The notes under the pieces are model-generated. The model made no database searches. It saw nothing but the letters and a program-made list of their open reading frames with translations, and was not told the DNA's origin. A stretch of DNA of 64,000 nt from Candidatus Dadabacteria bacterium (GTDB lineage Bacteria > Desulfobacterota_D > UBA1144 > Nemesobacterales > Nemesobacteraceae), in the NCBI GenBank assembly GCA_022819805.1, contig JAJEGO010000014.1:6521-70520 (forward strand), in the 5' to 3' direction. A program made the translations under genes and the position numbers. Positions 8,839 to 27,631 of this stretch are shown piece after piece (within the stretch, counting starts at the first letter, position 1; every line of letters starts with the position of its first letter).

Positions 8839-9771
8839 ATGTTCTCCGTGGATAAGACTCGCCGGACAGGACACCTGCTCACAGAAAAAGTAAACCCGAG
8901 AACGGTCAATATTGACGAACTTTCGTGTTCGGAAATCATCGATCTTATAGGTGGTGAGGACCGGGAGGCTTTTGAGGCCGTCTCCAGAGAAAAGGGCTCC
9001 ATTTCACGGGCGGCGGAAATGGTTTTCCGCTCACTTGAATGCGGCGGCAGAATTTTTCTCGTCGGGGCGGGAACAAGCGGGCGCCTCGGGGTGATGGAAG
9101 CCGCCGAATGTCCGCCGACTTTCGGGACGGATCCCGAAAGGGTGCAGGCGGTTATGGCGGGAGGGCGAGACGCGGTATGGAATTCGGTTGAGGGTGCTGA
9201 GGATTCCGCAACGGCTTCGGTGGAGACTCTTCGGGGCAAAAAACTCTCAGAGGACGACGTGACTTTGGGAATCGCGGCAAGCTCCGGGACGCCGTTTGTG
9301 ATATCGGCCCTTGAATACGCGCGGACAGTCGGCTGCGCTACCATACTTATAAGCTGCAGCGAGCCGGAGAACGCCCCGGCCGACCTGGTCATACCCCTTC
9401 TCGTCGGTCCGGAAGTGATAGTGGGCTCAACGAGGCTCAAGGCCGCGACCGCGACCAAGATGGCACTTAACATGATTACGACGGCCGCCATGGTGCTCCT
9501 CGGAAAAACTTACGGGAACCTGATGGTTGACCTTAAACCCACGTCCTCAAAACTTGCCGACAGGGCAAGGAGAATCATAATGGAGATATGCGGTGTGGGG
9601 GAAGAAGAAGCCGCCTCGCTTTTCAGGGAAGCAGGCGGGAACCTCAAAGTTGCCGTGGTAATGAAACTCGGGGGTCTCTCGCCTGAAGAATCTGTCAGTT
9701 TGCTAAGAGAGAACGGCGAATCCTTAAAGAAAACCCTTGCAACCATATCCCCCAGAATGGGAAATCCGTAA
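8839..9771 (+). CDS. murQ: N-acetylmuramic acid 6-phosphate etherase MurQ (SIS domain)
   Basis: The N-terminus LTEKVNPRTVNIDEL and the SIS motif IFLVGAGTSGRLG are typical of MurQ. About 300 aa. Confidence 0.85.
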   Translation: MFSVDKTRRTGHLLTEKVNPRTVNIDELSCSEIIDLIGGEDREAFEAVSREKGSISRAAEMVFRSLECGGRIFLVGAGTSGRLGVMEAAECPPTFGTDPERVQAVMAGGRDAVWNSVEGAEDSATASVETLRGKKLSEDDVTLGIAASSGTPFVISALEYARTVGCATILISCSEPENAPADLVIPLLVGPEVIVGSTRLKAATATKMALNMITTAAMVLLGKTYGNLMVDLKPTSSKLADRARRIIMEICGVGEEEAASLFREAGGNLKVAVVMKLGGLSPEESVSLLRENGESLKKTLATISPRMGNP

Positions 9772-9887
9772 TCTGGACGCTTGTCAAACCGCAAATCGAC
9801 CGCTAAGACGATTCCCCATGGTTTCCGTACAATCATTCATTCCAAGGTTGCTGGCTCCAACTATCCAGGCTGCGTTAGAGGATACAG

Positions 9888-9990
9888 AAGTGCAGATCGA
9901 GGACTTTATCTGAGTTTGTGCTTTTTCGGTTGCGGCGTTGAAAGAGACCTCGGTCAGCGGGTCTCGGGAGCGACCCTTTCCCTTTGCTAC
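9888..9990 (+). pseudogene. Chimeric remnant: a roughly 25-37 bp anmK-like fragment fused to a roughly 65-bp nagZ-like fragment
   Basis: The core 9891-9912 (gatacagaagtgcagatcgaggactttatctg) matches anmK 10155-10186 (gataccgaagtgcggatcgaagactttatctg); including flanking bases the match extends to about 9885-9912. 9923-9990 (ttttcggttgcggcgttgaaagagacctcggtcagcgggtctcgggagcgaccctttccctttgc) matches nagZ 11445-11510. Both matches have only a few mismatches. Confidence 0.5.
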
Positions 9991-10036
9991 GGAATGTTCC
10001 TGCCCAAGACCAGTTTCATCAGGTAGCTTTCTCTCC

Positions 10037-11224
10037 GTGAACTGGCTTCGTCCGATAATTTCAAAAAAGGAAAAACTCATCATCGGACTCATTTCCGGGA
10101 CTTCAATGGACGGTATTGACGCGGCGCTGGTGAGAATTCGCGGCTCGGGAGAAGATACCGAAGTGCGGATCGAAGACTTTATCTGCCGGGAGTATTCCGA
10201 TGCCGCGAGGAGGCTTCTTCTCTCAATCGGTTCCCTAAACGCCGGTTCCCTTTCCGACCTCAATTTCCTCCTCGGCCGGGAGTTTGCCGCCGCAGTCTTT
10301 GATCTTCTCAGCAAAGCATCCCTGAAAACGACCGACGTGGATCTTGTGGGCACCCACGGCCAGACGGTTTTTCACAATCCGCCCTCTCTCGGGGGGGATA
10401 TTTCTTCAACTCTTCAGCTCGGCGAAGCTGACGTTATATGCGAGGCAACGGGAATTACCACCGTGGGAGATTTCAGGACGAGGGACATGGCGGCTGGCGG
10501 AGAAGGTGCTCCCCTTATGCCCTACGTGGATTACCTGCTGTTCTCTGGAACCGGGAAGAACATAATCGCCCAGAACATAGGGGGTATTTCCAACTGCACT
10601 TTGGTTGCGGGGAAACCCAGGGAGCTTCTGGCGTTCGATACGGGCCCCGGCAATTCCCTGATCGATTCGGTGGCGCGCCTTGCATCGGGAGGCGAGAAGA
10701 GCTTTGACGAGGACGGTGCGATGGCAAAGCAAGGTTCGGTTAAAGAAGATCTCCTGCGCAGCCTCATGAAAAATCCTTACTTCGACATAGAGCCCCCTAA
10801 ATCGACCGGCAAGGAGCTTTTTGGAGAGGAAATGGTCACAAGGCTTTTTCTGCTTGTAGAAAAAAAGGACATCTCCCTGCCCGATCTTCTGCGCACGCTT
10901 GTCGAATTTACCGTCTGTTCCATAGTCTCGGCCTACGAAAGATTCATCTATCCTCGCGCGGATGTGGAGGAAGTGATACTGAGCGGAGGTGGTGCCCGAA
11001 ACCCTCTCATGGTTTCCAGGCTTCGCGAAAAACTCGCTCCGACGCGGCTTCGGCTTTCGGATGAATACGGTATTCCCGCGGATGCCAAGGAAGCCGTGGG
11101 ATTCGCGGTACTCGCGAATGAGACCGTGTGCGGGAACCGGGCCAACGTGCCGGAAGTCACGGGAGCCCGAGACTCCACGGTTCTGGGGAAAATCTCAATC
11201 GGGAAGAATATAGTAAATGTATGA
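10037..11224 (+). CDS. anmK: Anhydro-N-acetylmuramic acid kinase AnmK
   Basis: GLISGTSMDGIDAALV N-terminal signature. The start is probably GTG at 10037 (VNWLRPIISKKEKLIIG), because no ATG lies in frame upstream of the signature. About 395 aa. Confidence 0.85.
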   Translation: MNWLRPIISKKEKLIIGLISGTSMDGIDAALVRIRGSGEDTEVRIEDFICREYSDAARRLLLSIGSLNAGSLSDLNFLLGREFAAAVFDLLSKASLKTTDVDLVGTHGQTVFHNPPSLGGDISSTLQLGEADVICEATGITTVGDFRTRDMAAGGEGAPLMPYVDYLLFSGTGKNIIAQNIGGISNCTLVAGKPRELLAFDTGPGNSLIDSVARLASGGEKSFDEDGAMAKQGSVKEDLLRSLMKNPYFDIEPPKSTGKELFGEEMVTRLFLLVEKKDISLPDLLRTLVEFTVCSIVSAYERFIYPRADVEEVILSGGGARNPLMVSRLREKLAPTRLRLSDEYGIPADAKEAVGFAVLANETVCGNRANVPEVTGARDSTVLGKISIGKNIVNV

Positions 11225-11285
11225 GAATCCGGCAGTTTTCTCGTCAAAAGATCTCACCGCGCCCCGTCGCTCGGCGCAGTTTATT

Positions 11286-12734
11286 ATGCCGAGGATCGAT
11301 TTTCGAGATCCCGATTCCGTCAGGAGGGCGGAACTCCTCGTGCGGGATTTCTGCGTCTGCGGTTTCATAGTATTCAACGGGGAAGTTGAGCAGGTGAGGG
11401 AAACCACCGGTAGGCTTGCGTCCTTGTCCGAGTTCCCGCTTCTCTTCGGTTGCGACGTTGAAAGGGGCCTCGGTCAGCGGGTCTCGGGAGCGACCCTTTT
11501 TCCCTTCGCGATGGCCCAGGGGGCGATGGACGACGAGGAGGCCCTGAGACGCCAGGCCGTTATAACCGCCCGGGAGATGAAGTACTGCGGCCTTAACCTT
11601 GGTTTTGCCCCCGTTCTTGACATAAATACCGAGCCCAAAAACCCGATAATAAACGTGAGGGCGTTCTCAGATGACCCCGCGGTCGTTTCAAGACTGGGAA
11701 GCGTCTTCGCGGAGACCCTGCAGAAAGAGGGAGTGCTTGCCTGCGCAAAGCATTTTCCCGGCCACGGCGCCGCCCTGGAGGATTCCCATGCCCGGCTCCC
11801 AAGCGTCGAAAGATCCTTAGAGCGTCTTATGGAATCGGATATTGCGCCTTTTAGAGAAGCGATTGCGAAAAGGCTTCACTGCGTGATGCCGGCTCATGTC
11901 TGTTTTCCCTCTCTTGACCCGCTCGGTGCCCCGGCCACCCTGTCAAAGCCGGTCCTGCACGGCCTCCTGCGGGAAAAACTGGGATTCAGCGGCTTGGTTG
12001 TTTCTGACTCCTTCAGGATGGACGCCTTGGGGGGAGAGGAGCGGGAAGAGGAAAACATTCTGGCCGCCATTGCAAGCGGGGTTGATATTGTTTTGGATCC
12101 CAGAGATCCCGAGGGCTTCCTTAAAAGATGCGCGGAGGAGGATTTTTTTCAGGATCCCGCCCGGGCAGAGTCTCTTTCCAGGATATTCTACGCGAAAAAG
12201 CTTTTCGCCTCGGGCGGCGAAGAAGAGAGCACGCCCGATTTTGAGAGAAACGCCGGAGAGGCAAGGGAAATTACCCGCCGCTCGGTCTGCGTTTTGCGAG
12301 GAGAAGCTCTTCGCGGCAGGAAAGTCTCAGTTTTGCATTTCGGTACGGAAGACACAGAAGAGCTTCTCGGCGGACTTTGCGGGGGGCTCTCCGAGGGGGG
12401 AGTGGCGGTGGAGAAGAGTTTTTCCTGGTCCGAGGCACCGGAGCTTCGCGACGATCGCCCGCTTGTATGCGTTTTATCAACCGCTCCGGCGGGCTGGACG
12501 GAAAACAGCGTTGTTCCCCGGGCTGTAATGGATCGCATAAAGGATTTCTCCTCTTTCTCGGGTGAAAAAGTCCTGATTACCTTCGGTTCCCCGTATCCTG
12601 CCGCCGGGTTTCCTTTTTTCGATACTGTTGTCTCGCTTTTTGATTCCTCGCCCACGGCGGGCCGGGCGGCTGCGGAGGTTCTCACGGGAGAGAGGTCTTC
12701 TGCGGCAAGGCTTCCGGTGAAAATAACGCTATGA
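11286..12734 (+). CDS. nagZ: Beta-N-acetylhexosaminidase NagZ (GH3) with a C-terminal extension
   Basis: GH3 motifs KHFPGHG, VMPAHVCFP and GLVVSDSFRMDALGG. The alternative in-frame start at 11217 overlaps the anmK stop. Confidence 0.85.
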   Translation: MPRIDFRDPDSVRRAELLVRDFCVCGFIVFNGEVEQVRETTGRLASLSEFPLLFGCDVERGLGQRVSGATLFPFAMAQGAMDDEEALRRQAVITAREMKYCGLNLGFAPVLDINTEPKNPIINVRAFSDDPAVVSRLGSVFAETLQKEGVLACAKHFPGHGAALEDSHARLPSVERSLERLMESDIAPFREAIAKRLHCVMPAHVCFPSLDPLGAPATLSKPVLHGLLREKLGFSGLVVSDSFRMDALGGEEREEENILAAIASGVDIVLDPRDPEGFLKRCAEEDFFQDPARAESLSRIFYAKKLFASGGEEESTPDFERNAGEAREITRRSVCVLRGEALRGRKVSVLHFGTEDTEELLGGLCGGLSEGGVAVEKSFSWSEAPELRDDRPLVCVLSTAPAGWTENSVVPRAVMDRIKDFSSFSGEKVLITFGSPYPAAGFPFFDTVVSLFDSSPTAGRAAAEVLTGERSSAARLPVKITL

Positions 12735-14473
12735 AGCTCTACGCCATAGACTGGATGCTTGTTGGTCTCTATCTGGTTTTTTCCCTGGGCGTGGGCTTTT
12801 ATTTTTCAAGAAGGGCGTCGGGGAGTCTTTCTGACTATTTCGTTTCGGGACGCGGGCTTCCCTGGTGGCTTCTTGGAACCTCCATGGTCGCCACCACTTT
12901 CGCCGCCGACACTCCCCTTGCCATAACGGGGTGGATAAGAACCGAGGGAATATGGAAGAACTGGTTCTGGTGGAACTACATCTTCAGCCACGCGCTCGTG
13001 ATAGTGGTTTTCTCAAGGCTCTGGAGAAGGGCGGAGGTGATAACCGACAACGAGCTCATAGAGCTTCGCTACGGGGGCCGCCCCGCGGCGTTTCTCCGCG
13101 GCTTCAAGGCGTTTTATTTCTCGACGATTTTCAATTTCATAGTCATGGGGTGGGTGATCACCGCCATGACCAAGGTGTTTGAGGTCTTTTTCGGAGTCGG
13201 GCAGATATACGCCGTTTCGCTCTGCGTCGGAATCGTGCTCGTCTACACGGTTTTCTCCGGGCTCTGGGGAGTCGTGATAACGGATTTCGTGCAGTACGCA
13301 ATAGCGCTGGGCGGCACGATCATACTCGCCGTTGTGGTCATAAATTCTGACGCGGTCGGAGGGTACAGTCAGTTCGTAAGCAAAATAGCGGAACTTCCCC
13401 CGGAGCAGACTTCCATGTTCATCACGCAGCCCACAGGCGGCGAAGAGTTTTTCTCTTCTGATTTTTTCACCTTCCTTGTCTTCATGACCGTCGTCTGGTG
13501 GTCTTCCCACAACGCGGACGGGGGAGGCTATTTCATACAGCGCCTGTGCTCCGCGAAGAACGAGAGACACGCGCTTGCGGGCACCGCCTGGTTCGCGGTT
13601 AACCATTACGTGCTCCGCCTCTGGCCCTGGGTCCTGGTCGCCTTGGCCTCGGTCGTGATCTTTCCCGAAGCGGCGGGGGTGACGGGCGGGGACGACGAGT
13701 CGATGTACCTTGTGATGATAAGGGATTTTCTCCCTCCGGGCCTTCGGGGCCTTCTGCTGGTTTCCTTTCTCGCGGCGTTTATGTCCACGGTCTCCACCCA
13801 CCTTAACTGGGGCGCGTCGTACCTCGTGAACGACCTCTACAGAAGATTCGTGCGCCAAAGCGCCCCGCAGGGTCATTACGTGCGGGTCTCAAGGATCGCG
13901 ACCGTCGTGCTTGCCGTCATCGCGGGCGTGGTGGCGCTTCAGATAAAGAACATAGGGGACGCATGGATATTTCTCTGGGCAATGAGTTCGGGAATCGGCC
14001 TCGTGCTGATACTGAGGTGGTTCTGGTGGAGGATAAACGCCTGGAGCGAGATAGTGGCGCTTGCCTCGTCGCTTGCGACCATACTGGTTTTGATTCTCTA
14101 CACAGAAGCGAAGGGAGTTCCGCTGGAACTGCGCCACCAGATACTTGTTGTTCCCGTCTCGATAACCTGCTGGGTTGTGGCTACTTTCGTTACCTCTCCC
14201 GAGTCCTGGGAAAAACTCTCGGCATTCTACTCGAGGGTAAGGCCCCCGGGCCTCTGGTCGCCTGTCCGGAAGAGGGCGGGGGTTGCGCCGCAGCGGGGAG
14301 TTTTTTCTTCGGTTTTTCTTAACTGGTCGCTTGTGGTGTCTTTCCTCCTCTGTTTCATGATAGGCGCGGGCAAGCTCGTTCTTGGAGACGGCGAAAGCGC
14401 GCTCTGGCTTCTTTCGGTCTCGGCGGTTGCGTTTCTCCTCATCCTGCGCCGTCGCCACAGTTTTTTCCGCTAA
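12731..14473 (+). CDS. Sodium:solute symporter (SSS/SSF) family permease
   Basis: 580 aa with about 13 TM helices. Start overlaps the nagZ stop (ATGA coupling). Confidence 0.8.
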   Translation: MKLYAIDWMLVGLYLVFSLGVGFYFSRRASGSLSDYFVSGRGLPWWLLGTSMVATTFAADTPLAITGWIRTEGIWKNWFWWNYIFSHALVIVVFSRLWRRAEVITDNELIELRYGGRPAAFLRGFKAFYFSTIFNFIVMGWVITAMTKVFEVFFGVGQIYAVSLCVGIVLVYTVFSGLWGVVITDFVQYAIALGGTIILAVVVINSDAVGGYSQFVSKIAELPPEQTSMFITQPTGGEEFFSSDFFTFLVFMTVVWWSSHNADGGGYFIQRLCSAKNERHALAGTAWFAVNHYVLRLWPWVLVALASVVIFPEAAGVTGGDDESMYLVMIRDFLPPGLRGLLLVSFLAAFMSTVSTHLNWGASYLVNDLYRRFVRQSAPQGHYVRVSRIATVVLAVIAGVVALQIKNIGDAWIFLWAMSSGIGLVLILRWFWWRINAWSEIVALASSLATILVLILYTEAKGVPLELRHQILVVPVSITCWVVATFVTSPESWEKLSAFYSRVRPPGLWSPVRKRAGVAPQRGVFSSVFLNWSLVVSFLLCFMIGAGKLVLGDGESALWLLSVSAVAFLLILRRRHSFFR

Positions 14474-15459: not shown

Positions 15460-18400
15460 ATGGTGGAACATAAGCGGCTTGTCTCTCGGGTAGAGTGCCA
15501 GCGAAAACCCCTCTTGTCCCCGCATCCAGGCAAGGAAAGGGCCAAGCCAGTCCCGAACCGGGCGGATTTTGGGTTACTTGAAACCTTACTGACGCTCTTT
15601 TGCCTAAAGGCCCTGCGTTCCTCATCTTTTATTAGAAAAACAGCAATCCTGAAAAGCAGGATCTGCCTCCTGCTGGCGGTGCTTTTGCCGCTAGCGGTTC
15701 TTTCCGTAACCGCACACGCTGCCAACGGGGATCTTCGATTGTGCGATACCACGGTCACGAACAGCTGTACGGTTACGACTGACATAGGCAGGCTCGAAGT
15801 TGAGTATAACGGGATGTGGAAGGGGGTGTGCGATGACTATTTCACGAGTCACGAGGCAAGAGTCGCGTGCGGGCAATTAAATTACCCCAATTCACGATAC
15901 GCTAAGACTCTGTTGAGGCTGGACGGACCGACGAGAGCGCATCGTCATAACGGCGAATTCTGGCTTGATGATCTGCTCTGTGGCCAAGGTGATAATACTG
16001 TGGACAACAAGCTGATGGATTGTGCTAGGGCTGGTTCTGGTGCAGGTAATGAAATTGAACCCGGAGAGTCTGGTTATTGGGGGGAGCATAACTGCAAAAG
16101 CAATGAATATGCGGGGGTTGTATGCGTTATCACCGCTCCGGCTAAGCCTACGAACCTGGAAGCGGAAGCTAAGGGGCAGAGCATGATAGTGCTTAATTGG
16201 CGTGCTCCCAACTCCTATGTGGAAGGCTACAAAATCGAGGTCTCAGAGAATGGTGGCAACGACTGGGATGATCTTGAGTCCGACACTGGCAATGCGGACA
16301 CGACATATACCCATAGCGGCCTCCCTCCCAGCGCCACGCGACACTACCAGGTTTCGGCTATTAACTCAGAGGGCACAAGCGATCCTTCAAACATAGCAAG
16401 CGCCACGACAGAAGGCGTACCTCCTCCTTCGGATCAACCTGGAACGGTGGCCCTGTCTTTTTCGCAGCTCGAGATCGGGACGGCGTTAACTGCGACTTTA
16501 ACTGATCCTGACGGTTCTATAGCGAATGTCGAGTGGACATGGTACAGGTCAGCTGACAAAAGCAACTGGAATCCGATCTCCGGCGCCACGAGCAGCGGTT
16601 CTGCGACCGCGACCTACACGCCGGTTGCCGACGGCGATCCGAATGTTGAAGATGACGAGGATAAATACCTGCGGGCGGTGGCCTCTTATGACGATGGCCA
16701 CGGTCCCAATAAAAGCGCGGAGGCGGAATCCGCCAGCAAGGTTCCTGCAGTAAACTGGGCGCCCTCCTTTGATCCTGATCCGCCACCGAGCACCTTTTCT
16801 GTTGACGAGAACACGGGGACTGGAGTAAACATCGGGACGCCGATCGGGGTTACGGATCCGGAAGGTGAACCGCTCACCTACTCGCTTGACGATGGGGACG
16901 GCGATTCGTTCGCCATTGATTCCTCCGGGCAGATAAAGACCAAGTCGGCGCTTGACTACGAAGTCAAAAGTTCTTACACGGTCGAAGTTAAAGTCACGGA
17001 CGGAACCACGGAGATTACGACCACCGTGACCATTAACGTAACCAATGTTGAGGAAGATGGGACCGTGACCCTGTCTAGTTATTCTCCGAATGTGGGAATA
17101 GAGCTGACCGCTGAATTGGAGGATCCTGACGACGGTGTAACGGGTATCACATGGCAGTGGCAGCGCAAGTCATCCGGCGGGACTTTCACGAATATCCCCG
17201 GCGCCACGAGCAGCGGTTCTGCGACCGCAACCTACACGCCGTCCACAGGAGATCTGAATCATCTTCTGCGGGCAAAGGCATCCTACACGGACGGGCACGG
17301 TTCCAACACCGACATGGCGTATGCGGATTCAAACGAAGCGGTAACGGACACATGCCCTCCAAACCACCAAAACGAGGCGCCCGAGTTCAAAATCTCACCA
17401 CCCACGTTTTCTGTGGCTGAGAACACGAGGTCCGGAGTAAATGTCGGGACGCCGGTTACGGCTGAGGATGGAGACGCCGGTCAGCAAATCAGGCTCACCT
17501 ACTCGCTTGACGATGGGGACGGCGATTCGTTTTCCATTGAGAATGACAATTCTCCCGGGCAGATAAAGACCAAGTCGGCGCTTGACTACGATACGCAAGA
17601 TTCTTATACGGTCACGGTTTCCGTAACGGATCCGTGCGGCGAGGAAGATACCATCGACGTAACAATCAACGTTACCGAGCCCGCACCTCCGTCTTCAAAC
17701 ACGAGGGCACCCAACTCCGAGGTGACGAAGTCCGCCCCGGCTCCAACGGCAAAGGTTCCGCAGGCTCCCGCGAATTTAACTGCGGGGCGCGGTGACGGCG
17801 AGGTAACGCTTAGCTGGAGGGTCCCGAATGACGGCGGAAGCGTTATTAAGTACTACGAATACATGATTGATGATGGCCCGTGGATCTCGACCAAGGGAAA
17901 ATCCACTACCCACACTGTCGCCGGGCTTACCAACGGAGAGACCTATAAATTCAAGGTGCACGCGGTGAACGTCATCGGTCCCGGTCCCGGGTCAAGACCG
18001 GTGAAAGCCACGCCTGCCACCGTGCCCGGCCCCCCGCGCAATCTGACGGTGGCTCCGGGCGATCAGCGCGCGACGCTTATGTGGGAGCGGCCTGCGGATA
18101 ACGGCGGTCTTCCGATCACCAGTTACGAGTACGTCCAGAAGGAGGGAAGCGGCTCGTTCGGCAGCTGGATATCCATAGATAACAGCGGTCCCATGGAGAC
18201 AAATGAAACGAGCTATGTGGTCACGGGACTTAAAGACGGCACCGTTTATTCTTTCAAGGTGCGCGCGGTGAACGCCGTGGGTCCGGGAGACGCCTCGGCC
18301 GAGGCCACGGCCGAGACGAGCACTTCCGCCTCCCGGCGCCTGAGGCGCGTCAGCCTCAGCATTCTTCCCGAGTTCGGGAGGACCCTGGCGAGGAATTCCC

Positions 18401-19887
18401 TTGACGCGCTTGCCTGGCGTCTTGACAGCGTCCTTTCGGGATCCTTTGAGCGTACGGGGATGTTCAGGCTTATGGATCAGCACGCGGGGCTCCACGATGT
18501 CATCGGAATTGATATATGGGATGATCCGGAACTGTCGGAAGAGCTCAGCCTCGAGGAGTTGCTCTACGGGTCTTCATTCATAATCGAGGCCGGAGGGATG
18601 CCTAGGAAACCAAAGCAATATCCAACAAAACAGCGGCCTAAGGAAGCTCCCAAGAAGCATGCCGGGGAACATTCGAAAGAATTACCGGAAGAATTACGGA
18701 GGGAATATCCTCAGGATGAGGATATGTGGATTGACGAGGGCGGAAAACCGAATCTCATCGAGAGGCGGGGCGATATGGCGTTTTGGGGCAAGGCGGACTA
18801 CAGCGCCCTCTCGGTCGGCAGAAGCGGCGAAAACCTGAGCTGGGATGGCGGCATAACAAGCGGTTATCTCGGGGTCGACAGACGGTTAACCGAGAATGTG
18901 CTGACGGGAATTTCCGTCGCTTTGACGAAGGGAGATTTCGATTACACGGACTCCACCCCGGGGGAGGGAGGAAGCGGAGATTACCATGTGAAGATGCTCA
19001 GCGTGTCTCCGTACATCGCGTGGCTTATGTCCGAGGATGCTTACCTCTGGGGCGCAATCGGCTATGGACGCGGGGAAATAGACATAGACGACGAAGAAGT
19101 CCAGAGCGTCGCTTCAGGCGACCTCAGCTACAAGTCGGTGGCCGCGGGAGGAAGTGGCAGAGTGTTTGACTTGGGAGACACTACCTTCTCGCTTAAAGGT
19201 GAAGCGTTTAAGGTATGGATGGACGTGGAGGGCGAAGATTACCTGATTGATGACTCATCCGTGGGTGTACACCAGCTGCGCCTCGGCATGGAGGGAAGCT
19301 ACGAGTACCGCTTCGCGTCCGGAGCCTGGTTCAATCCCCTTGTGGAGGTCGCTCTTCGCCACGACGGGGGAGACGGGGAGACGGGCACCGGGGTTGAAAT
19401 CGGAGGCGGTTTCCTCTTCGAAGACCCGGATATGGGTCTTAGCATTGCGGGCAGGGGGCGCTGGCTGGCGGTGCACAGTTCCGATGAGTTCAGTCAATGG
19501 GGAGTTGGAGGAACCGTGATCTTCGATACGGGAGCGGACAAAGAAGGCGCGCTGTTCAGCGTGGCTCCCGGATGGGGAGACACTTCAAGCGGGATTGAGA
19601 ATCTCTGGGAGCGCGGAGCGGAAGGGGTGTCGTCAGAATACGGCAGAGACAACAGTCTGCATCTTGACGCGGAGTTCGGATACGGACTCCCGGCTCTCGG
19701 CGGGGACGGGATTCTCACTCCCTACAGCGGACTCAGGATGAGAGCAGACGGGTGGCGACAGTACCGCCTCGGCAGTCGTCTGGATCTCGGGCGTTCTACG
19801 AGTCTGAGCCTTGAAACCGAGCGAAGGCAGAGCGATGCGAAGAAGCCTGAGCACGGAATCATGCTGAGAGGAAAGCTTAATTTCTGA
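15460..19887 (+). CDS. Giant surface protein, predicted type V autotransporter adhesin with SRCR-like, FN3 (x3), cadherin (x2) and unclassified repeat (x2) passenger modules
   Basis: 1475-aa ORF. A signal-peptide-like segment (ILKSRICLLLAVLLPLAVLSVTAHA) follows a roughly 60-aa N-terminal extension. The SRCR-like domain spans residues about 91-223 (EVEYNGMWKGVCDD, ARVACGQL, FWLDDLLC, WGEHNC, AGVVCV). Two cadherin repeats carry F-S-V-D/A-E-N, LTYSLDDGDGDSF, QIKTKSALDYE/D and TVTINVT motifs. FN3 modules have W..P..GG..I..Y.Y and Y.F.V.AVN motifs. A helical linker precedes a roughly 370-aa C-terminal beta-domain ending ...GIMLRGKLNF, i.e. a terminal Phe. Confidence 0.8.
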   Translation: MVEHKRLVSRVECQRKPLLSPHPGKERAKPVPNRADFGLLETLLTLFCLKALRSSSFIRKTAILKSRICLLLAVLLPLAVLSVTAHAANGDLRLCDTTVTNSCTVTTDIGRLEVEYNGMWKGVCDDYFTSHEARVACGQLNYPNSRYAKTLLRLDGPTRAHRHNGEFWLDDLLCGQGDNTVDNKLMDCARAGSGAGNEIEPGESGYWGEHNCKSNEYAGVVCVITAPAKPTNLEAEAKGQSMIVLNWRAPNSYVEGYKIEVSENGGNDWDDLESDTGNADTTYTHSGLPPSATRHYQVSAINSEGTSDPSNIASATTEGVPPPSDQPGTVALSFSQLEIGTALTATLTDPDGSIANVEWTWYRSADKSNWNPISGATSSGSATATYTPVADGDPNVEDDEDKYLRAVASYDDGHGPNKSAEAESASKVPAVNWAPSFDPDPPPSTFSVDENTGTGVNIGTPIGVTDPEGEPLTYSLDDGDGDSFAIDSSGQIKTKSALDYEVKSSYTVEVKVTDGTTEITTTVTINVTNVEEDGTVTLSSYSPNVGIELTAELEDPDDGVTGITWQWQRKSSGGTFTNIPGATSSGSATATYTPSTGDLNHLLRAKASYTDGHGSNTDMAYADSNEAVTDTCPPNHQNEAPEFKISPPTFSVAENTRSGVNVGTPVTAEDGDAGQQIRLTYSLDDGDGDSFSIENDNSPGQIKTKSALDYDTQDSYTVTVSVTDPCGEEDTIDVTINVTEPAPPSSNTRAPNSEVTKSAPAPTAKVPQAPANLTAGRGDGEVTLSWRVPNDGGSVIKYYEYMIDDGPWISTKGKSTTHTVAGLTNGETYKFKVHAVNVIGPGPGSRPVKATPATVPGPPRNLTVAPGDQRATLMWERPADNGGLPITSYEYVQKEGSGSFGSWISIDNSGPMETNETSYVVTGLKDGTVYSFKVRAVNAVGPGDASAEATAETSTSASRRLRRVSLSILPEFGRTLARNSLDALAWRLDSVLSGSFERTGMFRLMDQHAGLHDVIGIDIWDDPELSEELSLEELLYGSSFIIEAGGMPRKPKQYPTKQRPKEAPKKHAGEHSKELPEELRREYPQDEDMWIDEGGKPNLIERRGDMAFWGKADYSALSVGRSGENLSWDGGITSGYLGVDRRLTENVLTGISVALTKGDFDYTDSTPGEGGSGDYHVKMLSVSPYIAWLMSEDAYLWGAIGYGRGEIDIDDEEVQSVASGDLSYKSVAAGGSGRVFDLGDTTFSLKGEAFKVWMDVEGEDYLIDDSSVGVHQLRLGMEGSYEYRFASGAWFNPLVEVALRHDGGDGETGTGVEIGGGFLFEDPDMGLSIAGRGRWLAVHSSDEFSQWGVGGTVIFDTGADKEGALFSVAPGWGDTSSGIENLWERGAEGVSSEYGRDNSLHLDAEFGYGLPALGGDGILTPYSGLRMRADGWRQYRLGSRLDLGRSTSLSLETERRQSDAKKPEHGIMLRGKLNF

Positions 19888-24457: not shown

Positions 24458-25363
24458 ATGAGATACACAGCGGCAAATGCGAGTTTTTGGCTTGTGGCGA
24501 TACTTTTGATTCTTGGTTCATCGCAGGCTTCGGCCGAGGATAAGTTCTATATCGGGCTTGAGGGGGGATTTTCAAAGTCGGGAGATCTGGGCATTTCCCA
24601 TTCTTTTGTAAATCACCCAACCCGGTGCGATTCGCTTCTTTATCCCTCGGGCGCGACTCCGCCGACTGACGCGGAATGTGTGGCCGATAAAACATCGACC
24701 GTCGCGAATGTGTTTAGCCCCGGCACGGGGTTTGTGGCCGGTGCGACTTTTGGTTATGCGCTCGGCAACGGGCTGCGCTTTGAAGCGGAGTACCTTAACC
24801 GCCGTCAGTCCTCCGAGAGAAGGCTCGTGCGTCTCGGTTCGGCGAGCGATGATCCGCTTGATCAGAAGAGCAGTGAATGGGATGAGAACGATCCTCCCTC
24901 AGAACGCGTGTATGACATCGGTGCACATCATCTCTTCCTGAACGCTTACTATGACTTGCGCAATGACTCGCCTATTACGCCTTATGTCGGAGCCGGTGTA
25001 GGCATGGGGTCGGTGGAAATGCGCTACTCGGCGAGATTCCTGCGCAGGAGCGATCTGGGAACGGAGCCATGGCAGGATGCCGCGGAAGGCACAACCAGCT
25101 CCATTAATCCTGCGCTTAAAAAAATCAGGTTCGGTTTTCAGGTGATAGGCGGAGTTGATTACGCGCTTGGCGACGATTTCTCAGTTGGCGCCAAGGTCCG
25201 CTGGACACGCCTCAGCGGTTTTGACCGCGACGACGTGCCCTGGACCGAAATCCGGGACCACGCACCTGTACGGGCCGACGGGGTTACGCCGCTTACTTCA
25301 GATTTTGAAGTGGATGACATGGATAACTGGACCGTTACGGTAGGGCTCAAGTATTATCTCTGA
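24458..25363 (+). CDS. Outer membrane beta-barrel protein (OmpA-like TM barrel family), paralog 1
   Basis: Signal peptide MRYTAANASFWLVAILLILGSSQASA. Amphipathic beta-strand pattern. Ends GLKYYL. RBS aaggaga. Confidence 0.7.
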   Translation: MRYTAANASFWLVAILLILGSSQASAEDKFYIGLEGGFSKSGDLGISHSFVNHPTRCDSLLYPSGATPPTDAECVADKTSTVANVFSPGTGFVAGATFGYALGNGLRFEAEYLNRRQSSERRLVRLGSASDDPLDQKSSEWDENDPPSERVYDIGAHHLFLNAYYDLRNDSPITPYVGAGVGMGSVEMRYSARFLRRSDLGTEPWQDAAEGTTSSINPALKKIRFGFQVIGGVDYALGDDFSVGAKVRWTRLSGFDRDDVPWTEIRDHAPVRADGVTPLTSDFEVDDMDNWTVTVGLKYYL

Positions 25364-25510
25364 ACGCTCTACTTTCCGACAAGCGTTCCCATGAGTTTCC
25401 AGTCTTCTTCCACTAAGGTTCCACTTGCGGCGGCGCAGTCCTTTTTCGTTTCGGCTGGTATTGTTTGACCGTGAACGGTTCTTGAGTTGAGAGATACAAG
25501 GAGAAAATAC

Positions 25511-26419
25511 ATGAGACATTTTGCTGGCAACGGGTGTTATTGGTTTGTGGCAGTTCTTTTGGCGTCCGCCTTGTCGGTGACGGATTCCGCGGCGGAAGGT
25601 TTCTATATCGGGCTTGAAGGGGGATTTTCAAAGTCGGGAGACTTGAACGTTTCCCAGTCTTTCATTGATCATCCGACCCGGTGCGATTCGTTTCTCTATC
25701 CTTCCGGCACGACTCCGCCGACCGACCCGGAATGCACCACCGATAGAATATCTACCATTGCAAACGTTTTTGTCCCCGGCGCGGGGTTTATGGGTGGCGC
25801 AACTCTTGGATACGCGCTCGGCAACGGGCTGCGTTTTGAGGCGGAGTATCTAAACCGCCGCCAGGGTTCGCAGAGAAAGCTCGTGCGCCTCGGTTCCGGC
25901 GGCGGCGAAACGTTCGATCAAAAGCAGAGCGAATGGGACGAGAACGATCCTCCCTCAGAACACGTGTATGACTTAAGGGCCCATCATTTCTTCCTGAATG
26001 TCTACTACGACCTGCGCAACGACTCGCCCTTTACGCCCTATATCGGAGGAGGCGCGGGTTTGGGTTCGACGGAAATGCGCTACTCGGCCAGATTCCTGCG
26101 CGGGAGCGCCCTGGGTACGGAACCGTGGCAGGTGGCCGTGGCGGGCACGCTCAGCGACATAGACACGGAACTGGGAAAAACCAGGTTCGGTTTTCAGGTG
26201 ATAGGCGGAGTTGATTACGCGCTTGGCGACGATTTCTCAGTTGGCGCCAAGGTCCGCTGGACACGCCTCAGCGGTTTTGACCGCGACGAGGTGTCCTGGA
26301 CGCGGGTCAGAGGCCACGAATCCATACGCGTCGACGGCGTTACGCCGCTTACGGCCGATTTCGAGGTGGATGACACAGACATCTGGACCTTTACGGTCGG
26401 GCTTAAGTATTATCTCTGA
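25511..26419 (+). CDS. Outer membrane beta-barrel protein, paralog 2 (tandem duplicate)
   Basis: About 75-80% identical to paralog 1, with the same Cys pair (RCDS...PPTD.EC) and the same ...GLKYYL terminus. Start at ATG 25511 after aaggagaaaatac. Confidence 0.7.
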   Translation: MRHFAGNGCYWFVAVLLASALSVTDSAAEGFYIGLEGGFSKSGDLNVSQSFIDHPTRCDSFLYPSGTTPPTDPECTTDRISTIANVFVPGAGFMGGATLGYALGNGLRFEAEYLNRRQGSQRKLVRLGSGGGETFDQKQSEWDENDPPSEHVYDLRAHHFFLNVYYDLRNDSPFTPYIGGGAGLGSTEMRYSARFLRGSALGTEPWQVAVAGTLSDIDTELGKTRFGFQVIGGVDYALGDDFSVGAKVRWTRLSGFDRDEVSWTRVRGHESIRVDGVTPLTADFEVDDTDIWTFTVGLKYYL

Positions 26420-26425
26420 ACGCCT

Positions 26426-27631
26426 CTACTTCCGGACAAGAGTTCCCATGAGCTTCCAGCCTTGCTCGACGAAGATTCCGCTTGAGGCGGCGCTGTCCTC
26501 GGTGTAGACAAGCGAGGCATTTTTTACCAAGCGGTTCGCGGAATCAAGTATGGCGAAGGGAACGGGCTCGTTCGAGTGGGTTCTGAGGTCTATGGGGGTG
26601 GGGTGGTCCGAGAGCACAAGCACCCTGTATTCGCCGAACTGCTCCATCCCCGCAAGCGCAGGCCCCACTACCTTCTGGTCGAAATCCTCGATCGCCCGTA
26701 TCTTGAGGCGGGCGTCTCCCACATGCCCCGTTTCGTCAGGCGCCTCTATGTGGATCATCGCGAGGTCGACCCGGCGCAGCGAGTCAAGAGCGCCGCTTAC
26801 CTTTCCCGCGTAGTTCGTGTCAAGGTACCCGGTCGCTCCCGGAACCTCGATCACTTCCATCGCGGCGAATACGCCTATTCCCTTTACGAGATCGACCGCC
26901 GATATAACGGATCCGGTGATTCCGTAAAGCTCCTGAAGGGACGGCATGTCGGGTCTTGTTCCCTCGCCCCAGAGCCATATGGAGTCGGCGGTGTTTTCCC
27001 CCTCGGCCCTTCTTTTTGCGTTCACGGGGTGATCCTTCAGTATCCCGCGGGATTTCTCCATGAGGCCGAGGAGTTTTTCCGCCCCGTCTCCTGAGGGAAA
27101 CCAGGGGGCGATTTCCTTTCCGGAAATGTCATGAGGCGGAGTTGTTCGGATACCGCTGTTTCCTCCGCGCCAGAGGAGAAGATGCCTGTAGCTTACCCCC
27201 TGGCTCAGCGAAAACTCCTCCCCGTCGAACTCTTTTTTCAGGTCCTCGATTATCCCGGCGGCGTCTTCGTCCGTTATGTGCCCGGCGCTGTAGTCCTCCA
27301 TGACCGTCCGTCCGTCTCTCTCCGCGAGGGTTACGAGGTTGCAGCGGACCGTGACGTCCCTGTCCCCGAGCGAAACCCCGATGCTCGCGGCTTCAAGGGG
27401 GGATCTTCCCGTGTAGTATTTCGTCGGGTTGTAGCCCAGCACCGCCAGGTTTCCCACGTCGCTTCCCGGGGGGAGAGGATCTGGAATGGTCTTCGCGGTC
27501 CCGAAAATCTCCGCCCGCTTCGCTATCGCATCAAGATTCGGGGTGTCGGCCACTTCAAGCGGAGTCCTGCCATCGAGCTCGGAAAGCTTGTGGTCGGGCA
27601 TGCCGTCGCCTTGGAGGATGAGGTATTTCAC
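26426..27631 (-). CDS. 2,3-bisphosphoglycerate-independent phosphoglycerate mutase, archaeal-type (ApgM family; alkaline phosphatase superfamily)
   Basis: 401 aa. N-terminus MKYLILQGDGMPD...TPLEVADTPNLDAIA and metal-binding His/Asp motifs typical of the apgM family. Family-level call only. Confidence 0.7.
   Translation of the reverse strand: MKYLILQGDGMPDHKLSELDGRTPLEVADTPNLDAIAKRAEIFGTAKTIPDPLPPGSDVGNLAVLGYNPTKYYTGRSPLEAASIGVSLGDRDVTVRCNLVTLAERDGRTVMEDYSAGHITDEDAAGIIEDLKKEFDGEEFSLSQGVSYRHLLLWRGGNSGIRTTPPHDISGKEIAPWFPSGDGAEKLLGLMEKSRGILKDHPVNAKRRAEGENTADSIWLWGEGTRPDMPSLQELYGITGSVISAVDLVKGIGVFAAMEVIEVPGATGYLDTNYAGKVSGALDSLRRVDLAMIHIEAPDETGHVGDARLKIRAIEDFDQKVVGPALAGMEQFGEYRVLVLSDHPTPIDLRTHSNEPVPFAILDSANRLVKNASLVYTEDSAASSGIFVEQGWKLMGTLVRK

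What the first reader, a model, noticed from the sequence alone, without database searches (positions are those of the whole stretch)
9888..9990. Chimeric anmK'-'nagZ ghost immediately upstream of the intact anmK
A roughly 25-37 bp segment matches an internal piece of anmK about 260 bp downstream. In anmK it encodes ...EDTEVRIEDFIC. The ghost core is 9891-9912, or about 9885-9912 counting flanking bases. Eleven bp later comes a roughly 65-bp segment (9923-9990) matching an internal piece of nagZ, which in nagZ encodes FGCDVERGLGQRVSGATLFPFA. Both matches are 90% or more identical. In the intact genes these two pieces lie about 1.26 kb apart. The simplest reading is a relic of an older duplicate anmK-nagZ copy that suffered an internal deletion. 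The fact that the sequence is retained at the operon 5' end could instead mean the pieces were co-opted. Possibilities include a leader decoy or an antisense-complementary element.
Basis: seen in the sequence. Interest (0 to 1): 0.5.

Follow-up and report, generated by a model that had tools for sequence, protein, structure and literature searches.

The report
Patchwork scar of a deleted gene
The two "ghost" pieces of anmK and nagZ are real, but they are neutral filler DNA inside the scar left when an accessory ATPase gene was deleted upstream of anmK in one strain cluster of a Dadabacteria-like bacterium; this is a tidy natural example of microhomology-guided patch repair, not a regulatory element.

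Summary
9877-9912 matches anmK 10150-10185 (32/36). 9925-9979 matches nagZ 11445-11499 (52/55), and with gaps the match runs from about 9904 to 9987. The parent pieces lie 1,260 nt apart.

The whole 265-nt murQ-anmK spacer (9772-10036) is a mosaic:
- upstream repeats plus codons 1-23 of an AAA_14/DUF4143 ATPase gene, which is intact at this position in related genomes
- an anmK piece
- a nagZ piece
- a 25-nt piece of a Fic gene
- 23 nt of native anmK leader

The junctions sit on short shared sequences: AGAGGATAC, CTTTATCTG and about 12 nt of imperfect ACCCTTTCC..TTTGC.

The same mosaic occurs without gaps in three other metagenome assemblies (94.7-98.5% identical), so it is not an assembly artefact. 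It is absent from a sister strain whose anmK is 99% identical and from about 40 other related loci. Between strains it diverges at the synonymous rate of anmK. It has no Rfam match and no unusual RNA fold.

Best reading: a non-functional deletion scar. It most likely formed in one event by serial microhomology-mediated template switching. Co-option as a leader or antisense element is not supported.

The parts
9762..9804 (+). Two 19-20-nt direct repeats that precede the ATPase gene in relatives (consensus AAACCGTAAATTGGACGCT): unit 1 at 9762-9781 and unit 2 at 9786-9804. Unit 1 overlaps the murQ stop codon (9769-9771). This is junction J0, a deletion between 8-nt repeats CCGTAATC.
   Evidence: 2-4 such units lie upstream of the ATPase ATG in L009, L004, L027, L017 and L002; in L144 the murQ end (..GAATCCGTAATCACC) and the repeat unit (..AAACCGTAATCTGG) are 777 nt apart with the MMP-A gene between them. 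The window has them fused.
9818..9885 (+). Relic of the first 23 codons of an AAA_14/DUF4143 ATPase gene. The ATG is at 9818. It now opens a chimeric 31-codon ORF, 9818-9913, encoding MVSVQSFIPRLLAPTIQAALEDTEVQIEDFI*.
   Evidence: 9774-9885 is 81-84% identical to the region upstream of and including the start of the 415-aa ORF of L009 (2694-3941). tblastn matches aa 1-25. Pfam gives DUF4143 at 3.5e-44 and AAA_14 at 5.2e-25 for the intact L009 protein. Translation.
9877..9912 (+). anmK-derived piece, parent 10150-10185. 9877-9885 (AGAGGATAC) is the sequence shared with the ATPase at junction J1. 9886-9903 is unique to anmK. 9904-9912 (CTTTATCTG) is shared with nagZ at junction J2.
   Evidence: 32/36, E=1.3e-5; all four differences from the resident anmK are states found in the functional anmK of relatives (34/36 to L003 and L007); imperfect homology between ATPase and anmK extends to 9868.
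9904..9987 (+). nagZ-derived piece, parent about 11423-11509. It carries one 1-nt and one 2-nt deletion, Asp->Gly at an invariant codon, and in this strain also 9919 C>T and 9947 G>A. 9974-9987 (CCCTTTCCCTTTGC) is the zone shared with the native spacer at junction J3.
   Evidence: the nagZ of relatives L081, L020 and L148 reads CTTTATC(T/C)GAGTTT, as the ghost does. L144, L145 and L147 carry C at 9919 and G at 9947; homology to the L143 spacer starts at 9974.
9989..10013 (+). 25-nt piece of a Fic ('mobile mystery protein B'-type) gene. It lies in the same DNA orientation as the Fic gene of relatives, whose coding sense is on the minus strand (WSWAGTFR). It is part of an older insertion of about 35 nt (about 9981-10015) in the native spacer.
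   Evidence: 22/24 to L019 3060-3083 and 22/25 to L007; the minus-strand translation is NWSWAGTFRSKGK. L143 carries the same insert together with an intact Fic gene 930 nt upstream (24/25 to its own Fic). L019 and L148 show the empty site CTGCTAAATC..TTTC|TCATCAGG.
10014..10036 (+). Native 23 nt immediately upstream of the anmK GTG start (TTTCATCAGGTAGCTTTCTCTCC). It is conserved in all close relatives.
   Evidence: Alignments.
10150..10185 (+). Parent segment in the intact anmK (codons for ..EDTEVRIEDFIC).
11423..11509 (+). Parent segment in the intact nagZ-like GH3 gene (..LSEFPLLFGCDVERGLGQRVSGATLFPFA).

Best explanation
The murQ-anmK spacer is a non-functional rearrangement scar.

Ancestral layout. 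An accessory cassette lay between murQ and anmK: Fic and HTH 'mobile mystery' genes on the minus strand, then an AAA_14/DUF4143 ATPase gene on the plus strand.

The event. In the ancestor of one strain cluster, the ATPase was lost from codon 24 to about 35 nt past its stop. The gap was bridged by two short stretches copied from the downstream genes. I think this most likely happened in one replication or repair event with three template switches, each primed on a short shared sequence:
1. The growing strand left the ATPase at AGAGGATAC and re-annealed to the same 9-mer in anmK, about 1.4 kb ahead. It copied 27 nt.
2. It left at CTTTATCTG and re-annealed in nagZ, 1.24 kb further on. It copied about 70 nt.
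3. It returned about 1.5 kb backwards to the native spacer, 63 nt upstream of anmK, at ACCCTTTCC..TTTGC, and continued normally.

Later. The window's sub-lineage also lost the HTH gene through a separate deletion between CCGTAATC repeats.

Status of each step. Shown here: the anatomy, the donors, the shared sequence at the junctions, the presence in several strains, and the neutral rate of change. Inferred: that the three junctions arose together by template switching.
For: - Anatomy and donors.
- Ancestral state: the intact ATPase sits at the orthologous site in L009, L004 and L027, with its stop about 60 nt upstream of anmK.
- Ongoing loss: the same ATPase has been removed independently by different deletions in L002 (aa 25/368), L017, L081 (codon 18 to the anmK leader) and L001/L146/L150 (promoter to the last codons). 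Loss of this gene is therefore the recurring process here.
- Shared sequence at all three junctions: 9 nt, 9 nt and about 12 nt imperfect.
- Real and heritable: the mosaic is gap-free in L144, L145 and L147, from other samples and another project, at 94.7-98.5% identity.
- Neutral: between-strain divergence of the mosaic is 0.015-0.053. anmK pS is 0.034-0.054 and pN is 0.001-0.007. The nagZ ghost has changes at invariant codons and frame-breaking indels.
- A second case at the same site: an independent insertion of about 35 nt copied from the Fic gene 930 nt upstream, with nothing deleted, is present in L143 alongside the intact Fic. Short templated patches therefore do arise here without a surviving duplicate.
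- No second anmK or nagZ copy in 33 close loci or 8 strain-level contigs.
Against: - A single event cannot be proven from sequence alone.
- All pieces are in direct orientation and there is only one backward junction. That is exactly what a tandem duplication followed by deletions predicts, whereas free template switching need not be so orderly.
- The 9-nt identities at J1 and J2 are exact only with alleles seen in relatives. The resident genes give 8/9 and 6/9.
- Most ghost-versus-parent differences lie at third codon positions and match other lineages' alleles. The donor allele therefore differed from today's resident genes, which adds an unresolved recombination step.
- I could not inspect sequencing reads.
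Confidence: 0.55

Rival explanations
1. Stepwise duplicate-then-erode. A tandem duplication of about 1.55 kb ran from 63 nt upstream of anmK to nagZ codon about 97 and created junction J3. The redundant upstream copy and the ATPase were then removed by two separate deletions between 9-nt direct repeats (J1 and J2). Only 27 + 70 nt were left behind.
For: - The order is collinear, all pieces are in direct orientation, and there is exactly one non-collinear junction.
- Deletions between short direct repeats clearly happen at this locus: J0 at CCGTAATC and four other independent ATPase deletions.
- Gene remnants in spacers are typical of decaying genomes (PMC3164680).
Against: - It needs three rare events, and the intermediate has 1.5 kb of perfect direct repeat. 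By general knowledge, homologous recombination normally collapses such a repeat quickly.
- No intermediate with a second copy was found in 41 related loci.
- The separate 35-nt Fic patch at the same site would need its own duplication of about 950 nt followed by a deletion of about 915 nt.
Confidence: 0.28
2. Import scar. DNA from a diverged, cassette-bearing relative entered by recombination. It was anchored by homology on the murQ side and joined illegitimately on the anmK side (homology-facilitated illegitimate recombination). The anmK and nagZ pieces would then come from the donor's genes, not the resident ones.
For: - The differences between the ghost pieces and the resident genes sit mostly at third codon positions. 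There the ghost carries alleles seen in other lineages such as L003, L007, L148 and L081.
- murQ is much more diverged between strains (pS about 0.19) than anmK-nagZ (pS 0.01-0.05). A recombination boundary therefore lies near the spacer.
- There is a cluster of mismatches at 11372-11414 between the window and L144.
Against: - The 3' half of the nagZ ghost (GGGTCTCGGGAGCGACCC) carries states specific to the resident lineage and L002.
- It still needs the same microhomology switches to explain three junctions.
- The mosaic diverges between strains like anmK, not like murQ.
Confidence: 0.1
3. Co-opted element. The pieces are kept because they act in the anmK leader, for example as a decoy, an attenuator, a small-protein ORF or the target of an antisense RNA.
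For: - The spacer probably lies inside the murQ-anmK-nagZ transcript.
- A 31-codon chimeric ORF with the ATPase start codon is intact in this strain.
- There is a weak terminator-like hairpin at 9959-9976.
Against: - The mosaic is found only in one strain cluster. It is absent from L143 (anmK 99% identical) and from all other species.
- It diverges at the synonymous rate.
- No Rfam family matches.
- It folds less stably than shuffles, z=+1.39.
- One terminator-like hit was found where 0.9 is expected, and no promoter-like site.
- Direct repeats cannot pair with their parents within one sense transcript.
Confidence: 0.04
4. Assembly or library artefact: a chimeric contig.
For: The source is a metagenome scaffold, ENA ERZ23491381 scaffold_274. 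I could not see reads.
Against: - The same 265-nt mosaic is assembled independently from three other datasets. It carries its own polymorphisms and has no gaps.
- The overlaps at the junctions are 12 nt or less. As general knowledge, this is too short for de Bruijn graph mis-joins at the usual k of 21 or more.
- The pieces differ from their parents in the same contig by substitutions and indels.
Confidence: 0.02

Closest known systems
Complex microhomology-mediated rearrangement junctions: long-distance template switching, FoSTeS or MMBIR (Hastings, Ira and Lupski 2009, PMC2621351; E. coli lac amplification junctions, Lin et al. 2011, PMC3161906)
   Same: Several novel junctions are clustered within about 110 nt. 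Each has a few to about 12 nt of shared sequence. Short stretches of nearby sequence (0.3-1.5 kb away) are inserted at the breakpoint of a deletion.
   Different: Those cases were caught as fresh events under selection or in patients, and they usually involve kilobase-to-megabase copy-number change and often inversions. This one is a small, old, neutral scar fixed in a wild strain cluster, and all pieces are in direct orientation. Single-event origin is inferred, not observed.
Pseudogene remnants in the intergenic spacers of genomes losing genes (for example Buchnera spacers, Degnan et al. 2011, PMC3164680; failed horizontal transfers, Liu et al. 2004, PMC522871)
   Same: An accessory, probably horizontally acquired gene (the AAA_14/DUF4143 ATPase beside Fic and HTH genes) is being erased by independent deletions in sister lineages. 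Short recognisable fragments are left in the spacer and drift neutrally.
   Different: Ordinary remnants derive only from the gene that used to be there. Here two of the fragments come from intact, still functional neighbouring genes.
Filler DNA or templated insertions at double-strand-break repair junctions (microhomology-mediated end joining; review PMC12426944; bacterial group II intron-like RT in MMEJ, bioRxiv 10.1101/2022.03.14.484287)
   Same: Short templated patches flanked by microhomology at a deletion junction.
   Different: By general knowledge, end-joining filler is usually copied from within tens of nucleotides of the break. Here the templates lie 0.3-1.5 kb away. No enzyme could be assigned.

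Membership tests
Template-switch (FoSTeS/MMBIR-type) complex junction | Two or more novel junctions clustered at one breakpoint | tested here: met
   J1 (9877-9885), J2 (9904-9912) and J3 (9974-9987) lie within 111 nt.
Template-switch (FoSTeS/MMBIR-type) complex junction | Microhomology at each junction | tested here: met
   J1: AGAGGATAC, 9/9 with relatives' anmK and 8/9 with the resident. J2: CTTTATCTG, 9/9 with L081 nagZ, 8/9 with L148 and 6/9 with the resident. J3: ACCCTTTCC..TTTGC, shared imperfectly between nagZ and the L143-type spacer.
Template-switch (FoSTeS/MMBIR-type) complex junction | Inserted segments templated from nearby sequence | tested here: met
   The donors are anmK 10150-10185 and nagZ 11423-11509, which lie 0.27 and 1.5 kb away on the same strand.
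Template-switch (FoSTeS/MMBIR-type) complex junction | All junctions formed in a single replication or repair event | not testable with these tools
   No strain with a subset of the junctions was found. L143 has none of J1-J3, while L144, L145, L147 and the window have all three. This is compatible with one event but is not proof.
Eroded tandem duplicate of anmK-nagZ | Fragments collinear with and in the same orientation as the parent genes, with a single non-collinear junction | tested here: met
   The order is ATPase 5' end, then anmK', then nagZ', then back to the spacer. All pieces are direct.
Eroded tandem duplicate of anmK-nagZ | Relatives that retain a fuller second copy (intermediates) | tested here: not met
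   Self-comparison of upstream regions against anmK-nagZ in 33 close loci gave only one borderline 21-nt hit. None of the 8 strain-level contigs has a second copy.
cis-regulatory RNA leader, riboswitch or sRNA | Conservation across lineages and constraint on the sequence | tested here: not met
   It is present only in 4 near-identical strains. Its divergence of 0.015-0.053 is about the pS of anmK.
cis-regulatory RNA leader, riboswitch or sRNA | Stable or known secondary structure | tested here: not met
   No credible Rfam match; the best is E=0.48 to a eukaryotic snoRNA. MFE z-score is +1.39, and 182 of 200 shuffles fold at least as well.
Pseudogene relic of an AAA_14/DUF4143 ATPase | Homology to an intact gene at the orthologous position in relatives, truncated here | tested here: met
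   9774-9885 is 81-84% identical to the promoter region plus codons 1-23 of the L009, L004 and L027 gene. Only aa 1-25 are detectable in the window.

The most novel reading that the evidence does not exclude
The roughly 60 nt upstream of anmK may be a recurrent hotspot for short templated patches. Two independent events are seen: first a 25-nt Fic piece, then the anmK and nagZ pieces. Every donor lies on one DNA strand of one probable transcription unit. This could mean the patches were copied from the operon's read-through RNA by a template-switching reverse transcriptase during break repair, rather than from DNA.
Probability: 0.06. Interest if true: 0.65.

Novelty: new member of a known kind. 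Interest (0 to 1): 0.3.

Why it matters
It has little bearing on cell-wall recycling biology, because the anmK operon itself is ordinary.

Its value is as a clean, dated natural example in an uncultured bacterium. The state before the event, the state after it, and a later deletion can all be seen in sister strains. The example shows that:
- accessory genes are erased repeatedly at one site by microhomology deletions
- such a deletion can be bridged by short copies of neighbouring genes

It is also a practical warning. Short high-identity 'ghosts' of adjacent genes in a spacer can be repair filler, not regulatory elements and not evidence of a lost paralogue. The ghost also preserves anmK and nagZ allele states that the resident genes no longer carry.

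Tried and rejected
1. An exact-protein look-up with the 395-aa AnmK found nothing, because public gene calls start at the internal ATG 10106. The 372-aa form and NagZ worked.
The follow-up protein-guided scan added only three close loci.
3. I first treated the Fic piece (9989-10013) as a fourth switch of the same event. L143 carries it without the other pieces, next to the native CTGCTAAAC motif that the mosaic lacks. It is therefore an earlier, separate insertion.
4. I first took the murQ-stop/repeat fusion (J0), which L001 also has, as inherited. L144 has the mosaic but not J0, so J0 is later and probably recurrent.
5. I considered placing J3 at the 8-nt GGGAGCGA shared by nagZ and the ATPase 3' end. 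I rejected this because the nagZ identity continues for 6+ nt beyond it and the ATPase 3' flank does not match.
6. The Rfam, promoter/terminator and folding checks gave nothing.
7. The small ORFs 9818-9913 and 9781-10026 have no Pfam hit.

Full report
**Observation**

The window carries murQ (8839-9771), anmK (10037-11224), a 505-aa GH3 nagZ-like gene (11217-12734) and a sodium:solute symporter (12731-14473) in one direction (NCBIfam).
- 9877-9912 matches anmK 10150-10185 (32/36).
- 9925-9979 matches nagZ 11445-11499 (52/55).
- E-values within the window are 1.3e-5 and 2.4e-19.
- With gaps, the nagZ match runs from 9906 to 9987 against 11424-11509 (73/86).
- The parent pieces are 1,260 nt apart.
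- A self-comparison of all 64 kb finds only five repeat pairs, and these are two of them.
- The encoded peptides are as stated.

**Source and relatives**

The window is identical to part of ENA assembly ERZ23491381, scaffold_274, 93.6 kb. AnmK-guided searches returned 79 genome loci and 61 metagenome loci. The close ones (72-91% AnmK identity) are MAGs labelled Candidatus Dadabacteria or Thermodesulfobacteriota. The nearest species-level relatives are only 82-88% identical in anmK and nagZ DNA.

**What the spacer is made of**

BLAST of 9772-10036 against these loci showed that the ghost pieces hit only the intact anmK and nagZ of relatives. In contrast, 9774-9885 hits something else, at varying distances upstream of anmK. 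That something is the upstream region and first 23-25 codons of a 415-aa gene lying between murQ and anmK in L009, L004 and L027. Pfam identifies it as AAA_14 + DUF4143.

In other relatives, murQ abuts anmK directly, or a minus-strand pair sits between them: a Fic gene and an HTH gene of the 'mobile mystery protein B/A' type.

The ATPase has been removed independently in several lineages:
- L002 fuses aa 25 to aa 368.
- L017 keeps aa 1-47 and 242-415.
- L081 joins codon 18 to the anmK leader.
- L001, L146 and L150 join the promoter to the last few codons.

The window keeps codons 1-23, followed by the two ghosts. The ghosts are therefore filler inside an ATPase-deletion scar.

**Junctions**

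- **J1.** The ATPase reads ..TTAGAGGATACGCC and anmK of many relatives reads ..GGAGAGGATAC(A/C)GAA. The scar switches from one to the other at AGAGGATAC (9877-9885). Imperfect similarity extends back to 9868.
- **J2.** anmK reads GACTTTATCTGCC. nagZ of L081 reads TCTTTATCTGAGTTT, and L148 reads TCTTTATCCGAGTTT. The scar switches at CTTTATCTG (9904-9912).
- **J3.** nagZ ..GCGACCCTTTTTCCCTTCGC meets the native spacer ..AAACCCCTTTCCTTTTGC, as preserved in L143. The two cannot be told apart over 9974-9987.

**The Fic piece is an older, separate event**

9989-10013 is 22/24 identical to the Fic gene of L019. On the minus strand it encodes the conserved WSWAGTFR. I first counted it as part of the same event.

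Strain-level relatives corrected this. They were found through the 90% protein clusters and exact-protein look-ups.
- L143 is 99% identical in anmK and nagZ. It has intact Fic and HTH genes and no ATPase, anmK or nagZ pieces.
- L143 nevertheless has the same Fic-like insert, next to the native CTGCTAAAC motif. The insert is 24/25 identical to its own Fic gene 930 nt upstream.
- L019 and L148 show the empty site.

The Fic patch is therefore an earlier insertion of about 35 nt, with nothing deleted.

**The mosaic is real, heritable and neutral**

The whole 265-nt mosaic aligns without gaps in three other assemblies:
- L145, from another project: 98.5% identical
- L147: 96.2% identical
- L144: 94.7% identical

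L144 still has the HTH gene and a further repeat unit upstream. The fusion of the murQ stop codon to the repeat (J0) in the window is therefore a later deletion. It removed 777 nt between CCGTAATC repeats. The same fusion in L001, L146 and L150 is probably a parallel event.

Divergence between strains:

| Comparison | Value |
|---|---|
| Mosaic divergence | 0.015-0.053 |
| anmK synonymous (pS) | 0.034-0.054 |
| Non-synonymous (pN) | 0.001-0.007 |

The nagZ ghost carries Asp->Gly at an invariant codon and two indels. In this strain it also has 9919 C>T and 9947 G>A. There is no Rfam match, no promoter-like site, one terminator-like hairpin where 0.9 is expected, and a fold less stable than shuffles. 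Nothing suggests function.

**Origin of the donor alleles**

All four differences between the anmK ghost and the resident anmK are states present in relatives' functional genes. Most ghost-versus-parent differences in both pieces fall at third codon positions. Random decay of the ghost would hit all codon positions equally. Much of the difference therefore reflects a donor allele unlike today's resident one. Either the resident genes were later replaced by recombination, or the template was foreign. Two further observations show that recombination is active here:
- murQ pS between strains is about 0.19, against 0.01-0.05 for anmK-nagZ.
- Mismatches between the window and L144 cluster at 11372-11414.

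**Mechanism**

Two routes fit the data.

- **(a) One event with three template switches at the shared motifs.** This is the kind of event proposed for complex microhomology junctions in E. coli and humans, where short lengths of nearby sequence are inserted at the novel junction (PMC3161906, PMC2621351).

Route (b) is favoured by the strict collinearity and direct orientation.

Route (a) is favoured by three things:
- No intermediate was found in 41 related loci.
- A 1.5-kb perfect tandem repeat is expected to be unstable (general knowledge).
- An independent short templated patch exists at the same site.

I put (a) at about 0.55, (b) at about 0.28, an import-scar variant at about 0.1, function at about 0.04 and artefact at about 0.02.

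**Verdict**

The feature is a neutral patchwork scar of accessory-gene loss, which makes it a new example of a known kind of event. It is of modest interest, mainly as a well-resolved natural case and as a caution against reading regulation into such ghosts.

Noticed in passing
window 9762-9804; L009 about 2620-2690; L004, L027, L002, L144: 19-20-nt direct repeats (AAACCGTAAATTGGACGCT, period about 22-24 nt) lie just upstream of the DUF4143 ATPase start. There are 2 copies in the window and 3-4 in loci with the intact gene. They look like operator or iteron sites. What binds them is unknown.
   Followed up: partly
window 9762-9773; L144 1875-1887 and 2656-2667; L001, L146, L150: The murQ stop codon is fused to a repeat unit by a 777-nt deletion between CCGTAATC repeats. 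The same fusion occurs in lineages that carry a different ATPase deletion. L144, the closer relative that has the mosaic, lacks it. The deletion therefore seems to have happened at least twice.
   Followed up: partly
window 9981-10015; L143 2876-2910 vs L143 1953-1977: A patch of about 35 nt containing 25 nt of the Fic gene is inserted into the anmK leader without any deletion. It is present in a strain that still has the intact Fic gene 930 nt upstream. It is a second, older templated insertion at the same site.
   Followed up: yes
L002 3734-3939; L017 1871-3923; L081 1735-1829; L001 3886-4000; L146; L150: There are at least four further independent, different deletions of the same ATPase gene in sister lineages. 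The murQ-anmK spacer is a hotspot of accessory-gene gain and loss: Fic/HTH pair, ATPase, and HigB/HigA-like genes next to murQ in L002.
   Followed up: partly
window 8839-9771 vs 10037-12734, compared with L143 and L144: Synonymous divergence between near-identical strains is about 0.19 in murQ but 0.01-0.05 in anmK and nagZ. There is also a cluster of 8 mismatches at 11372-11414 against L144. Recombination tracts appear to end near the spacer and inside nagZ.
   Followed up: partly
window 10037 vs 10106: Public gene calls start anmK at the internal ATG 10106 (372 aa). Alignment with about 30 orthologues supports the GTG at 10037 (395 aa, MNWLRPIISKKEK...). The longer in-frame TTG at 9938 runs into the ghost and is spurious.
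   Followed up: partly
window 15460-19887: A 1,475-aa ORF has internal DNA repeats (16576-16623/17194-17241 at 96%; 16791-16983/17403-17613 at 76%). Public precomputed Pfam hits on it are SRCR, fn3, cadherin, PKD and autotransporter, so it is a eukaryote-like surface protein.
   Followed up: no
window 24458-25363 and 25487-26419: Two adjacent same-strand genes (301 and 310 aa) share 81% nucleotide identity over about 900 nt (24545-25442 vs 25601-26499). They form a tandem paralogue pair that I did not identify.
   Followed up: no
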